DNA of 63,923 nt, filler included, from Octopus bimaculoides (Eukaryota): NCBI RefSeq assembly GCF_001194135.2. It is 7 parts of 6 records of this genome, joined end to end, with 100 filler letters (N's around TTAATTAATTAA, not from the genome) between each part and the next. Parts side by side here need not be neighbours in the genome. Positions count along the whole stretch, not along the records: positions 32,401 to 49,418 come from NC_068986.1; positions 49,519 to 53,825 come from NC_068995.1; positions 53,926 to 62,735 come from NC_068989.1; 4 more parts are not named here. One strand, written 5' to 3'. Shown in pieces: positions 39,005 through 55,208 of the stretch. The notes below the pieces were generated by a model, which saw only the letters and a program-made list of their open reading frames with translations, did not search any database and had not been told where the DNA came from. How positions within the stretch are numbered: position 1 is the stretch's first letter; every line of letters starts with the position of its first letter. Position numbers and translations under genes: made by a program.

Positions 39005-39390
39005 CTGTATTTGCCAAGGGAAGTTATCTTTCCCATCTTGATCTACCATACGTACGTACTCGAGTTTCAGGGTTATTTCCCTTCTTCAGTGTACGACAAT
39101 CGCCGACCTTCGATGCAAAAGACATCCCTTGGCAAATATATATAACTTTTTCCAGTGAAATTATTCACTGATATCGAAAAAGTGAAAACAAGCAATGTTA
39201 AATCTCTGGACGAGGTATTAACAGTAACTGCACGATAAAGTGAAGTATATTTGCCACTTAAATGTGGCTGACCCCGAGGGGTGGATGTTACTCTTGCTTT
39301 TACCCCAGGAGGACATCTCCTCCAGCTGGTTATCGACACACATCTGTGTCCTGTCTGTATTTGCCAAGGGAAGTTATCTTTCCCATCTTG
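39005..39390 (-). mobile_element. ~350-bp hammerhead-containing non-coding unit (retrozyme-like), 1.1 tandem copies
   Basis: Exact 36-nt repeat 39005-39040 = 39355-39390 (period 350); homologous to 54804-55208; many hairpins; no ORF. Confidence 0.75.
39051..39095 (-). ncRNA. Minimal type I hammerhead ribozyme
   Basis: Minus strand: cgtaca CTGAAGA aggg-aaataa-ccct GAAA ctcgag TA cgtacg; complete core, 4-bp stem II, palindromic stem III, GUA site, 5-bp stem I after one A-C mismatch. Confidence 0.85.
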
Positions 39391-39499
39391 GTCTTTTGCA
39401 TCGAAGGTCGGCGATTGTCGTACGCTGAAAGGCGGTGCTCCAGCATGGCCGCAGTCAAATGACTTAAACAATTAAAAGAATATGCCAGTGGATAAATGG

Positions 39500-39791
39500 G
39501 CGATCAGAAACGAAAAGTTCTATGCAGCAGAAAAGATGATGATGATGATGAAGGTGGTGGTGGTGGTGGTGGTGGCNNNNNNNNNNGGAAATGGTGGTGG
39601 TGGAAGTGGTGGTGGTGGTGGAAGTGGTGGTGGTGGAAGTGGTGGTGGTGGAAGTGGTGGTGGTGAAGAAGATGATGACGATGATGATGACGATGTTGAA
39701 AATGATGATGTCGATGTCAATGGTGACGATGATAATGATGACGACGATGACAACAATAATAACAATCACAACAACAGTAATAATGATGATG

Positions 39792-39828
<37 letters not shown>

Positions 39829-39922
39829 GATGAAGAAGAAGAAGAAGAAGAAGAAGAAGAAGAAGAAGAAGAAGAAGAAGAAGAAGAAGAAGAAGAAGAA
39901 GAAGAAGAAGAAGAAGAAGAAG
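39500..39922. repeat. Compound trinucleotide microsatellite (GGT/GAT/AAT/GAA)n
   Basis: Direct inspection; source of spurious polyK/polyD/polyF ORFs. Confidence 0.95.
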
Positions 39923-39923
39923 A

Positions 39924-41005
39924 ATGGTAATGGAAGGAAGGACGAAAAAGTTGATGATGTTGCATGGGGCACTACACCCTAAAGCAAATGTAAACAGACT
40001 GTATATGAAAAGAAAGAATGGTGGCAGAGGACTAATTAGTATAGACCATTGTATAAGGAGTGAAAGGAGAACGCTTGCCGAGTATTTGATAAATAGTGAT
40101 GAAGACTTGCTGCAGTATGCTGCGAAAGATATAGATGTAAATGCAGATGAAATGATGGGCAAGGAAGAGTTTAACCAAAGAGCCAAGGAGAAGAGAAAAT
40201 ACACAAGATGTTTAGGATGATACAGCATCGTGGACATGGCTTGAGCGAGGTGATTTTATGCGTACCACCGAAAGCCTGATGATTGCTGCACAAGACCGGG
40301 CTCTCGCTACTAATTCAGTGAAGTATGACGTCTATAAAACTTCTGATACCCAGAAATGCAGACTCTGTGGAAAGAGTGTGGAAAATGTGACCCACTAGGT
40401 AAGTGGGTCACATTTGCAGAAAAAATACAAGCGCCGCCACGATAAAGTGCGTGTGTATTTTCGTTGGCTCTTATGTCGTAAATACCAATATGAAGTAACA
40501 GAGAACTGGTATGAGCATGTACCAAGTAAACTTATTCAGGAGGGTGGAAAAGTAACGATACTCTGGGACTATATCCGGCCGATGGTGTAATCGAACACCG
40601 TAGGCCGGATATGGTCATAGTGAATAAGAGAGACAAATAGCGTCAGATTATTGATGTCGTCATACCAAATGACACGAAAGTTGTGAGTAAAGAGTTTGAA
40701 AAACATCACCAAATACACCGAATTGAAAGTGGAAATGGCAAGACTGTACGGAATGCGAGAGGGTAATGTAAAAGTGATACCAGTGGTGATCGGAGTTTTG
40801 AGCTCAATCTCATTGAAACTTCAAGACTTCTTATATAACTGGAAATCCGATGCAAAATTGATGTCTTGCAAAACGCAGCCGTATTGGGTACAGTGCACTT
40901 CTTAAGGAAAGCATTATCTATCTGAGGTCCTTTTTCGTGACTTGTCAAGTGACTAAAGACTCCGGTGCATATTTACCTACACTGTGTTACGAATGAATAA
41001 TAATA
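39924..41005 (+). mobile_element. 5'-truncated R4/Dong-clade non-LTR element (post-RT region, CCHC, restriction-like endonuclease)
   Basis: HGALHPKANVNRLYMKRKNGGRGLISI; TESLMIAAQDRAL; CRLCGKSVENVTH; YKRRHDKV; RPDMVIV...IIDVVIP...EKITKYTEL; 3' end in (aat)n. Confidence 0.9.
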
Positions 41006-41019
41006 AAAGCAACAATAAT

Positions 41020-41225
41020 GACGATTTCAAATTTTGGCACAAGACCAGAAGGGGTAAGTCGATTACATCGTTCACAGTATTCAACTGGTACTTATTTTAT
41101 TAACCCCGAAAGAATGAAAAGCAAAGAAGACCTCGACGGAATTTGAACTCAGAACGTAAAGACGGGCGAAATACCGCTAAGCATTCTGCCCTGCGTACTA
41201 ACGATTCTGCCACCTTACCGACTTA
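41020..41225 (-). mobile_element. SINE family B
   Basis: gtcgattacatcg...ggtacttatttt...gaatttgaactcagaacgt...aaataccgctaagcatt. Confidence 0.8.
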
Positions 41226-41279
41226 ACAGCAGCAGCAGCATCAACAACTGCAACAACAAAAACAGCAACGATGATGATA

Positions 41280-41342
<63 letters not shown>

Positions 41343-41904
41343 TTGATGACTTGTTTTCTTTATAAAATTTTAAAGATAATAGTATTTACAAACATTATGA
41401 ATGAAGTATAAGGAGGAAAGACAACGTCAGGAAAGATAAAATAAGAAGAGCAACATAGTTTGAGACACTGAGTGAGAGAACGAGTGTGAGAGTGAGTGAG
41501 TGAGTGAGTGAGTGAAACTGGAGCGGAAGTAGTTATAATACAGAACTCGTGTGGTTTGTTGAACGGTAAAATAGTAAATAGTATCACTAGTGTTACCGAT
41601 TCTGTAGTGGTACTGCTGATAAAATTCTGATTCACATGCCATTCATCCAAAGAATGCTTCCTTTTTTTTTTCTCTCTCTTATTTTGTTTAATTGATAATT
41701 ATTTCTTCATTTTACTTTTTTTTTTTGTTTCGTTTCATTTCAGTGCTGCCATTTATTTTTTATGTTTCTATATTTTCACTGAAAGTGAAGAGAGGGCGAA
41801 ATGCTGTAATGACTAGACATACATCTAGAGAGTATGAACGGATATGTAATGTCACTTTTGTATTCATTCCCTTCACAGATATATGCACCAAAGCAAACGC
41901 ACAG

Positions 41905-41961
<57 letters not shown>

Positions 41962-53033: not shown

Positions 53034-53096
53034 TATATATGTACATATGTATATATGTATATATGTGTATATGTACATACACACACACACATACAT

Positions 53097-53143
<47 letters not shown>

Positions 53144-53632
53144 TATATACTTAATTAATCGAAAAGTAACACTCACACTGACTCACACATCAATACATCT
53201 AAGTATGTATCTGTGTACGTACGTTTGTATGAAAATGTGTATGTGTGCATTTGTGTATTTTATCTGTGTATATGTGTGAATGCGCGCGCGCCTGTGTGCG
53301 TAAATGTCTCTGTGTGTATGTGTGTGTATGTGTGCGTGCGTGCGCGCGCGCGGCTTGCATGGCTAATGGAGAATACGTCTAATCATCGCCGGCGTATTAA
53401 TCAATTATCTTAGTCATAATTTTTTTTGTCTATGTGCATACAAACACACATATACGTGTATGTGTGTGTGTGTATGTGTGTGTGTGTGTGCGTGTGCGTG
53501 CGTGTGCGTATGTGTTTGAATATTTACTTGTACATATATACATACATATATGAATATATAACCTATATTACACATGTATATATATGTGAATATACATATA
53601 CACACTCATATATATATATATATATATATTTG

Positions 53633-53800
53633 TAGGCGTAGGAGTGACTGTGTGGTAAGTACCTTGCTTACCAACCACATGGTTCTGGGTTCAGTCCCAC
53701 TGCGTGCCACCTTGGGAAGTGTCTTCTAGTATAGCCTCAGGGGCGACCAAAGCCTTGCGAGTGGATCTGGAAGATGGAATCTGAAAGAAGCCCACCAAAA
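53633..53800 (+). mobile_element. SINE family A head/core
   Basis: ggcgtaggagtgactgtgtggtaag...gaaagaagccc. Confidence 0.85.
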
Positions 53801-54039
53801 TCGCTTGACAACATATATATATATANNNNNNNNNNNNNNNNNNNNNNNNNNNNNNNNNNNNNNNNNNNNTTAATTAATTAANNNNNNNNNNNNNNNNNNN
53901 NNNNNNNNNNNNNNNNNNNNNNNNNGCGCCTCCAAATATAAAGATATATTCTCATAACTATTTCAAAATATCTATATTTTATTTTTTAAAATATCTAAAT
54001 TGTAATGATTATAGAATTTCAAACTGAAAATCTGTCAAT

Positions 54040-54600
54040 GTTGAAGCACCTCCGGGTAAACAATGTTCATTGTGTAATATTTTGGCTGGTATCGAAATGA
54101 ATAAATTTTTGCCGCTTCCAAGTCACGAGCAAGCAACATAGAGCTGGCCGTGGTAGAAGCATGAAGTAGAGAGGTCAAGTCCAACTACCTTGAAGGATTG
54201 ACCCCGAGATTTGTTAATTGAAATACCAAAACATAGTTTGACTGGAAACTGAAGCGTCTTAAATTCAAATGAAACATCTGTAGGTATGAGAGGATTTTTT
54301 GGAATAAAGACATTTTCTCCTTTGTGACTACCTCTTATAATTGTTGCCTGTAGGACATGGAGCTCCATAGAAGTAACAATTAAGCGGGTTCCGTTACACA
54401 GGTGGGAAGGGTCAAGATTCCTAAGAAACATAATGGGAGCACCCAGTTTTAGTGTCAAGTTATGCGCTGGCATCCCAGTGGGTTTAAGTGTGTTCATAAA
54501 TTCAACAGGGTATTGAATTATCTGATCTTGATCGACTGTTGTCAATTGATCGAAAAATCATTTCTGATGTATCTTTTAACTTTTGAAGTAGTTCATGATT
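54040..54600 (-). mobile_element. Helitron RepHel PIF1-type helicase C-terminal fragment
   Basis: YPVEFMNTLKPTGMPAHNLTLKLGAPIMFLRNLDP..LCNGTRL...QFPVKLCFGISINKSRGQS...HGQLYVACS. Confidence 0.92.
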
Positions 54601-54619
54601 GATTTTATCAACCATTTCA

Positions 54620-54766
54620 TTAGTTGGAGCCAGTAGAGCTCTTTACATGTATATAGAATAAGTACTAGGCTTACAAAGGAATAAGTCCTGTTAGATTTGT
54701 TCGACTAAAAGCAGCGCTCCAGCATGGCCGCAGTCAAATAACTGAAACAAGTAATAGAATGAAAGA
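54620..54766 (+). mobile_element. SINE family A 3' tail
   Basis: gaataagtactaggcttacaaag...gctccagcatggccgcagtcaaataactgaaacaagt. Confidence 0.85.
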
Positions 54767-54771
54767 ATATA

Positions 54772-54803
<32 letters not shown>

Positions 54804-54805
<2 letters not shown>

Positions 54806-55208
54806 ATGTTTATAAGCCAACATAACGTGGCAGTCTTGTAAAGGACGATGTCACAGTTGTTTTAGCCCCAGGAAAATATCTCTTCCAGCTGGCTAACGAC
54901 ACACGGTCTGTGTCCCTATATAGCATTTGCAAGGGAGGTCATTGCTCCCATCTCTAGCCATACGTGATACTCACAAACCTAGGTTTCTGGATGTTATCCG
55001 TCCTCAGTGTGAGACAATCCCCAGCTAGTGACGAAAGCTATCTCCACTCGCAAATACTATATATTCTTTAAGAGACGCACAGTCGCGAATCTCGTATCGA
55101 GAAAACATGTTTTAAATCTCTGAGCGAGAGAAATGAAGTAACAGTACCGGATAGTAATGTTTATATGCCAACATAACGTGGCAGTAATGTGAAGGACGAT
55201 GTTACTGT
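54804..55208 (-). mobile_element. ~351-bp hammerhead-containing non-coding unit (retrozyme-like) with 54-bp terminal redundancy, in (TA)n
   Basis: 54804-54857 vs 55155-55208 match at 48/54 (period 351); (TA)n on both sides; homologous to 39005-39390. Confidence 0.75.
54970..55013 (-). ncRNA. Minimal type I hammerhead ribozyme
   Basis: Minus strand: ctcaca CTGAGGA c-ggat-aac-atcc-a GAAA cctagg TT tgtgag; perfect 6-bp stem I, palindromic stem III, GUU site, C-A mismatch at the base of stem II. Confidence 0.85.

What the first reader, a model, noticed from the sequence alone, without database searches (positions are those of the whole stretch)
39005..55208. Retrozyme-like ~350-nt hammerhead RNA family present in two different circular permutations
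Seen: two homologous non-coding units (39005-39390, period 350; 54804-55208, period 351), each terminally redundant but starting at a different point of the same unit, and each with a minimal type I hammerhead on the minus strand at the same relative position (39051-39095; 54970-55013). All three stems differ in sequence yet still pair: stem I CGTAC/GTACG vs CTCACA/TGTGAG, stem II AGGG/CCCT vs GGAT/ATCC, stem III palindrome CTCGAG vs CCTAGG. Established: metazoan non-LTR retrozymes are short tandem hammerhead units that give circular RNAs, and Penelope-type minimal hammerheads with palindromic helix III are thought to cleave as dimers. Inference: a non-autonomous, viroid-like circular-RNA retroelement family, probably mobilised by Penelope-like elements. 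I do not know of one described for cephalopods, but I cannot check the literature.
Basis: partly seen in the sequence, partly recalled or inferred. Interest (0 to 1): 0.88.

Follow-up and report, generated by a model that had tools for sequence, protein, structure and literature searches.

The report
High-copy hammerhead retrozyme repeat family
These are two copies of a highly repeated 350-base non-coding element that carries a predicted self-cutting hammerhead RNA and likely spreads by borrowing Penelope retroelement enzymes, a kind of element already known from mussels and amphibians, here in what is likely an octopus.

Summary
Two homologous units (350 and 351 nt, 63.5% identical when rotated) each carry a type I hammerhead on the minus strand, at the tip of a strong predicted rod (z -7.2 and -6.1). 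Reads laid on unit 1 show a high-copy family. The family restores the one broken core pair of unit 1 and shows two more palindromic helix III variants. 'Two circular permutations' is not shown: unit 1's left end is an assembly gap and its right end is an inversion breakpoint that other copies run past. The insertions look Penelope-like: partial tandem, inverted 5' piece, (TA)n flanks. RNA reads exist (738 of 12.9 million records) and favour one subfamily, but self-cleavage, circularity and strand are not shown. Best reading: a metazoan non-LTR retrozyme, that is a non-autonomous Penelope-type retroelement (about 0.8). This class is published, including 350-390 nt mussel retrozymes and a 2026 preprint deriving retrozymes from Penelope elements. 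My searches found no cephalopod report. The host taxon rests on recall, not on a call. Verdict: new member of a known kind, interest about 0.4.

The parts
39005..39390 (-). Unit 1: at least 1.10 monomers (period 350) of the hammerhead element; left end hidden by the assembly gap
39051..39095 (-). Type I hammerhead of U1; predicted cut 39057|39056; helix III palindrome CUCGAG; private A.C mismatch at the base of helix I
   Evidence: the family has the pairing base in 104 of 104 RNA reads at 39090
39008..39138 (-). Predicted long rod with the hammerhead at its tip (U1)
   Evidence: -56.4 kcal/mol, z -7.15, 0 of 200 shuffles (folded 39008-39140)
39391..39429 (+). Inverted 39-nt copy of 39085-39123 at the 5' side of the element (Penelope-like inverted 5' piece); keeps the G that pairs at the base of helix I
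39428..39482 (+). 3' tail of a SINE-like repeat abutting the inverted piece; not part of the element
   Evidence: 10 similar tails in the window; the SINE label is recalled
38267..39004 (.). (TA)n tract 38267-38327 and N gap 38328-39004 that hide the true left end of U1
54804..55208 (-). Unit 2: 1.15 monomers (period 351), both ends in (TA)n; ends map to U1 positions 39241 and 39294
54970..55013 (-). Type I hammerhead of U2; predicted cut 54976|54975 after GUU; helix III palindrome CCUAGG; C.A mismatch at the base of helix II
54916..55062 (-). Predicted long rod with the hammerhead at its tip (U2)
   Evidence: -59.5 kcal/mol, z -6.10, 0 of 200 shuffles
54804..54857 (-). 54-nt redundant extension of U2 (repeat of 55155-55208, 48 of 54 identical); possibly a Penelope-type 'tail'
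   Evidence: the tail reading is an inference from PMC8557442 passages
54767..54805 (.). (TA)n tract on the left of U2, following a SINE-like tail; a shorter (TA)n lies at 55209-55221

Best explanation
This is a high-copy, non-coding 350-nt repeat family whose minus-strand RNA is predicted to fold into a rod tipped by a self-cutting hammerhead, and which likely spreads as a non-autonomous retroelement (a non-LTR retrozyme) using Penelope-like reverse transcriptase and endonuclease. Shown: unit length, homology, high copy number, conserved hammerhead core with covarying helices, more-than-unit-length copies, an inverted 5' piece, (TA)n flanks, and RNA reads dominated by one subfamily. Inferred: (1) Multimeric transcripts from tandem copies self-cleave, probably as double hammerheads joined through the palindromic helix III. 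(2) Monomers with 5'-OH and cyclic-phosphate ends are ligated into circles by a host tRNA ligase, as shown for mussel and axolotl retrozymes. (3) A Penelope-like RT/GIY-YIG protein primes at a nick in (TA)n and copies the circle or multimer for more than one unit, leaving partial tandems, a short extension and sometimes a fold-back inversion. The two copies here are probably dispersed, decaying insertions with one hammerhead each, not source loci.
For: Hammerhead in both copies, above chance. Helix I differs on both sides at 3 of 6 pairs and still pairs, once the family's G-C at the base is used. Four different 6-nt palindromes in helix III: CUCGAG and CCUAGG in the window; UCCGGA (X21 55 reads, X17) and CCCGGG (X1 8 contigs, X17 2 contigs) among loose ends. 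Rod z -7.15 and -6.10; circular monomer folds z -8.2 and -3.2 against 60 shuffles each; 7 of 26 consensus pairs changed on both sides (two sequences only). 4048 contigs of run X1 lie on U1 at 85% or more; 20 runs of one organism from 9 studies hold its words, 11 with half or more. Contigs in X14 and X17 and 2 RNA reads continue head-to-tail past U1's breakpoint. No ORF is shared by the two monomers. Size, GC 42-44% and helix III type match published retrozymes. Partial tandem, inverted 5' copy, tail and microsatellite bias are Penelope hallmarks. Variants at 39208, 39211 and 39214 are in 180, 173 and 160 of 222 X21 RNA reads and 63-65% of X17 depth, against 2-6% of X1 contig depth.
Against: No cleavage, circle or strand was shown. 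No pile-up of read ends at the cut site, and first mates lie on both strands in similar numbers. 738 of 12.9 million records is a modest level that intronic read-through of a high-copy repeat could give. Neither window locus shows two complete hammerheads in tandem, the criterion of Li et al. 2026 for an active retrozyme; only 1 of 9 Xenopus dimers cleaved in that study. U2's two repeat ends differ at 6 of 54, more than one RT pass round one circle would give unless the copy is old. 82 of 100 X21 reads carry C instead of U at core position 4 (39088), which may lower activity (recalled). No autonomous Penelope partner was identified, and no genome was held. No read data were obtained for U2, so its subfamily size, ends and expression are open.
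Confidence: 0.78

Rival explanations
1. The units are solo or truncated pseudo-LTRs of autonomous Penelope-like elements; there is no independent small retroelement.
For: Penelope-type junctions. Xenopus retrozymes are homologous to pLTRs. Penelope-like elements make up 6.83% of the Octopus vulgaris genome (supplement row). U1's left side is hidden in a gap.
Against: U2 is closed by (TA)n on both sides with a full unit plus 54 nt and no ORF. Contigs and reads run head-to-tail at period 350. No Penelope RT or GIY-YIG among 39 of 172 ORFs scanned. The hammerhead has a helix III and lacks the G10.1-C11.1 pair typical of pLTR minimal hammerheads.
Confidence: 0.12
2. A non-autonomous Penelope-type element that moves through linear multimeric transcripts with a fixed boundary; the hammerhead only trims the RNA or is vestigial, and no circle is formed.
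For: 65 X1 contigs break off left of 39298 into unlike flanks (agreement 0.46, median 78 letters), the only low-agreement cluster among the 21 loose-end rows shown, with 251 rows not shown. U2's right end maps to 39294, about 240 nt from the cut site. 37 RNA reads span the cut site intact. U4C is frequent in expressed copies. U2's repeats differ at 6 of 54.
Against: A fixed priming point is also compatible with a circular template. Ligated circles also give reads across the cut site. The core and palindrome covary across subfamilies 36% apart, which points to selection on the ribozyme. Mussel, coral and axolotl relatives of this kind do form circles.
Confidence: 0.08
3. A satellite or fold-back DNA element amplified at DNA level, with a chance hammerhead-like motif.
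For: Strong hairpin; a Helitron helicase fragment lies about 250 nt from U2; no Rfam hammerhead match.
Against: Descriptor hits only at these two homologous sites. The fold is stronger on the hammerhead strand. Helices I-III covary. The Helitron piece is separated from U2 by a SINE-like tail.
Confidence: 0.02

Closest known systems
Metazoan non-LTR retrozymes, above all Mytilus galloprovincialis 350-390 nt and axolotl 330/350 nt units (Cervera and de la Pena 2020, PMC7229834; read text parts 2-4 of 6 and passages; supplement not readable)
   Same: Unit size, GC below 50%, type I hammerhead, self-paired fold, non-coding, thousands of heterogeneous copies; helix III of one pair with a palindromic tetraloop as in HHR_Amex1; a mismatch at the base of helix II as in HHR_Amex2.
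   Different: Host is not among those studied. Circles and cleavage are shown there, not here. The window copies are 1.1-mers with one hammerhead each. Sequence homology to the mussel element was not tested.
Retrozymes as non-autonomous Penelope derivatives (Li, Clavereau, Pollet, bioRxiv 10.64898/2026.07.22.740005; read parts 1-3 of 5, abstract to discussion; supplements closed)
   Same: The same model of mobilisation by Penelope machinery; dispersed monomers beside tandem arrays.
   Different: The survey covers 31 vertebrates, 3 insects and 1 coral, no mollusc. It does not describe inverted 5' pieces or a fixed boundary. No pLTR homologue was identified here.
Penelope-like elements and their pLTR minimal hammerheads (PMC4209133, read parts 1-2 of 4 and supplement passages; PMC8557442, passages)
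   Same: Partial tandems, inverted 5' copy, short tail, (TA)n targets, palindromic helix III region read as a dimer signal.
   Different: No RT/GIY-YIG ORF; helix III present; no G10.1-C11.1 pair after a bulged base; the tail here would be 54 nt against 30-40.

Membership tests
Metazoan non-LTR retrozyme | Type I hammerhead in the unit | tested here: met
   no Rfam match
Metazoan non-LTR retrozyme | Unit of 150-450 bp with GC below 50% | tested here: met
   350 and 351 nt, GC 0.42 and 0.44
Metazoan non-LTR retrozyme | Non-coding | tested here: met
   No ORF shared between the monomers; no Pfam match for the ORF over U1
Metazoan non-LTR retrozyme | Many heterogeneous genomic copies | tested here: met
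   4048 contigs in X1 at 85% or more, spread over four identity bands; tested for U1 only; the copy number itself was not measured
Metazoan non-LTR retrozyme | Highly self-paired monomer RNA | tested here: met
   Predicted folds
Metazoan non-LTR retrozyme | Head-to-tail tandem with at least two complete hammerheads | tested here: inconclusive
   Window loci are 1.10 and 1.15 units with one hammerhead each; U1 runs into a gap; laid contigs are too short (longest piece listed 223 nt)
Metazoan non-LTR retrozyme | Self-cleavage at the predicted site | not testable with these tools
   No read-end pile-up in one fragmented library, which is not a test
Metazoan non-LTR retrozyme | Accumulation as monomeric circular RNA | tested here: inconclusive
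   738 RNA reads, 37 across the cut site; circles and uncut linear transcripts cannot be told apart
Metazoan non-LTR retrozyme | Long target-site duplication when present; no PBS or PPT | not tested
   Flanks are (TA)n or a gap; PBS and PPT were not searched
Autonomous Penelope-like element (pLTR) | RT plus GIY-YIG ORF beside the repeat | tested here: not met
   None in 39 of 172 ORFs scanned, chosen by eye as least N-rich or simple-repeat; U1's left flank is hidden
Autonomous Penelope-like element (pLTR) | Minimal hammerhead: no helix III, bulged base, G10.1-C11.1 | tested here: not met
   Sequence against PMC4209133
Penelope-type insertion | Partial tandem, inverted 5' piece, tail, microsatellite target | tested here: met
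   against PMC8557442; two loci only

The most novel reading that the evidence does not exclude
A cephalopod retrozyme radiation that is still expressed as circular RNA, in which subfamilies carry different helix III palindromes (four seen) that act as a self-recognition code for double-hammerhead cleavage. Its Penelope priming site is fixed about 240 nt from the ribozyme cut, and its long rod could be an ADAR substrate whose edits are written back into the genome.
Probability: 0.2. Interest if true: 0.68.

Novelty: new member of a known kind. Interest (0 to 1): 0.42.

Why it matters
It would extend ribozyme-made circular RNA retroelements to a further animal lineage, likely cephalopods, where two repeat-annotation papers I searched do not mention ribozymes. 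Its junctions (inverted 5' piece, tail, TA targets, a possible fixed boundary) give locus-level support for the proposed but unproven mobilisation of retrozymes by Penelope elements. Four natural palindrome variants and a frequent U4C core variant make the dimer-cleavage model directly testable. It does not change the known class.

Tried and rejected
No whole genome was held, so the genome-wide table of ends could not be made. Rfam: no hammerhead match in the window or either unit; one search listed 150 of 196 matches, nearly all miRNA-family matches in or near simple repeats and all below their gathering scores; no RNA holder listed on record; not used as evidence. No read data were obtained for U2. 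Metagenome scan with a 20-letter motif: 24 loci, 0 of 24 with a hammerhead or homology beyond about 27 nt, so chance. Earlier scan findings: nothing. Energy folding does not return the active hammerhead or double-hammerhead core, so it neither supports nor refutes dimer cleavage. Opposite-strand joints were set aside as likely caused by the inverted copy in the reference. A plus-strand CUGAUGA...GAAA in the loose ends of the expressed subfamily was checked by eye only and showed no convincing helices. Lunse et al. 2017 is not held and may list cephalopod hammerheads. The supplement of PMC7229834 was unreadable, file 1 of PMC4209133 was not searched, and the preprint's supplements are closed. 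Literature searches for a cephalopod report; none found among the listed rows.
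Full report
Observation. Both units are present. U1 39005-39390 repeats its first 36 nt at period 350. U2 54804-55208 repeats 54 nt at period 351 with 6 differences. Rotated to the predicted cut, the monomers align end to end at 228 of 359 columns, score 281 against 90 +/- 11 for 300 local shuffles; unrotated they score 70, and the best offset is about 115 nt. 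My hammerhead descriptor finds two sites in the window, one per unit, both on the minus strand; 2 of 200 shuffled windows gave one hit and none gave two. Rfam matched no hammerhead family.

The ribozyme. U1 has an A.C mismatch at the base of helix I. The adjacent inverted copy has the pairing G, and so do 104 of 104 RNA reads and nearly all contig depth at 39090, so U1's base is a private change, consistent with CpG decay (inference). With that pair, helix I differs between U1 and U2 on both sides at 3 of 6 pairs. U2 has a C.A mismatch at the base of helix II and a GUU triplet; whether its subfamily is intact is open, as no read data were obtained for U2. Most X1 depth at 39057 gives the triplet GUC (124,529 of 162,890). 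Helix III is a 6-nt palindrome in both copies, and loose ends show two more, UCCGGA and CCCGGG. One pair capped by a palindromic tetraloop is the form described for axolotl retrozymes, which cleave far better as dimers (PMC7229834). It is not the minimal Penelope form (PMC4209133). Against full activity: 82 of 100 X21 reads and 30% of X1 depth have C at core position 4.

Structure. The hammerhead sits at the tip of a rod in both units (z -7.15 and -6.10, 0 of 200 shuffles each). Circular monomers fold at z -8.2 and -3.2 on the hammerhead strand, and -7.0 and -2.5 on the other (60 shuffles each). In a two-sequence consensus 7 of 26 pairs change on both sides. Independent folds share only 47 of about 111 pairs in alignment register, so the overall shape is better conserved than the exact pairing.

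Family. Twenty runs of one coded organism, from 9 studies, hold U1's words, 11 with half or more. I laid 4 of the 24 listed runs. In X1, 4048 contigs lie on U1 (721, 1237, 1517 and 573 in the four identity bands); summed depth is not a copy number. A 223-nt X14 contig with 7 differences, an X17 contig and 2 RNA reads pass from 39354 to 39005 and continue, so 39390 is not a family end. The kind of X14 and X17 is guessed by the tool.

Ends. U1's left end is the edge of a 677-N gap with (TA)n on its far side. Its right end joins a 39-nt inverted copy, then a SINE-like tail. U2 lies in (TA)n on both sides, and its ends map to U1 39241 and 39294. In X1, 65 contigs break off left of 39298 into unlike flanks; this is the only low-agreement cluster among 21 rows shown, with 251 hidden. 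That hints at a preferred boundary about 240 nt from the ribozyme cut, with U2 being one unit plus a 54-nt extension. So the two permutations are not established. Partial tandems, an inverted 5' copy, a 30-40 bp tail and microsatellite bias are described for Penelope-like elements (PMC8557442 passages). The inversion starts within the rod region, which fits fold-back priming on the new cDNA (inference). No Penelope RT or GIY-YIG domain was found in 39 of 172 ORFs scanned.

Expression. In RNA run X21, 738 of 12,895,792 records lie on U1, mostly 90-95% alike, with first mates on both strands in similar numbers and no pile-up of ends at the cut. Thirty-seven reads (24 starts) span the cut site; circles and uncut linear RNA would both give these. 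Variants at 39208, 39211 and 39214 occur in 180, 173 and 160 of 222 X21 reads and in 63-65% of X17 depth, but in 2-6% of X1 depth. This suggests that one subfamily is preferentially transcribed. Limits: different individuals, contig depth is a poor measure, two other X21-rich variants (39159, 39262) are rare in X17, and the level is low enough for intronic read-through.

Mechanism. Shown: anatomy, covariation, copy abundance, junction types. Inferred from mussel, coral and axolotl work: multimer transcription, hammerhead cleavage probably as dimers, ligation to circles by a host ligase, and more-than-unit reverse transcription by a Penelope-like enzyme at (TA)n. I put this at 0.78. Rivals: solo pLTR fragments (0.12), a linear non-autonomous Penelope-type element without circles (0.08), a DNA-level repeat (0.02).

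Comparison and novelty. It works like a metazoan non-LTR retrozyme and meets five defining features tested; none tested for that family failed. The tandem and circle features are inconclusive, cleavage is untestable here, and target-site duplication, PBS and PPT were not tested. Mussel retrozymes of 350-390 nt are published (PMC7229834), and a 2026 preprint argues that animal retrozymes are non-autonomous Penelope sequences, without sampling molluscs; only 1 of its 9 dimers cleaved. Searches listed no cephalopod retrozyme report, and PMC13282606 and PMC8967140 contain no 'ribozyme' in the main text. PMC7761336 (passages) has no 'cephalop', and PMC10886601 (passages) is unrelated. Lunse et al. 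2017 and several supplements could not be seen and may bear on priority.

Verdict. A real feature and a new member of a known kind. Interest 0.42.

Noticed in passing
window 39428-39482 and 54707-54766: Both units abut the 3' tail of the same SINE-like repeat in the same orientation; 10 such tails matched in the window. This may reflect shared (TA)n targets or chance.
   Followed up: partly
window 54123-54557 (-): Helitron-type Pif1 helicase 2B fragment (PF21530, E 3.2e-19) about 250 nt from U2.
   Followed up: no
window 1346-1789 (+): Piece of Prp8 (PF10597, E 2.9e-18); exon or retrocopy not determined.
   Followed up: no
window 23133-23612 (+): Reverse transcriptase fragment with a YADD motif (PF00078, E 1.1e-4, below cut-off); looks like an RTE-type LINE by recall, not Penelope.
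   Followed up: partly
window 26290-26958 (+): Zinc knuckle match (PF00098, E 4.2e-4), possibly a retroelement remnant.
   Followed up: no
window 39088 (reads): The most expressed subfamily carries C at hammerhead core position 4 (82 of 100 reads); the variant is also in DNA (30% of X1 depth).
   Followed up: partly
window 52899-53013: A near-perfect inverted repeat of about 40-bp arms (Rfam mir-580 match below the gathering score), probably a MITE-like element.
   Followed up: no
L008, L012, L014, L016, L019, L020, L021: Seven metagenome loci share one repeat; five of them (L014, L016, L019, L020, L021) show a ~400-nt imperfect hairpin. Unrelated to this family.
   Followed up: no
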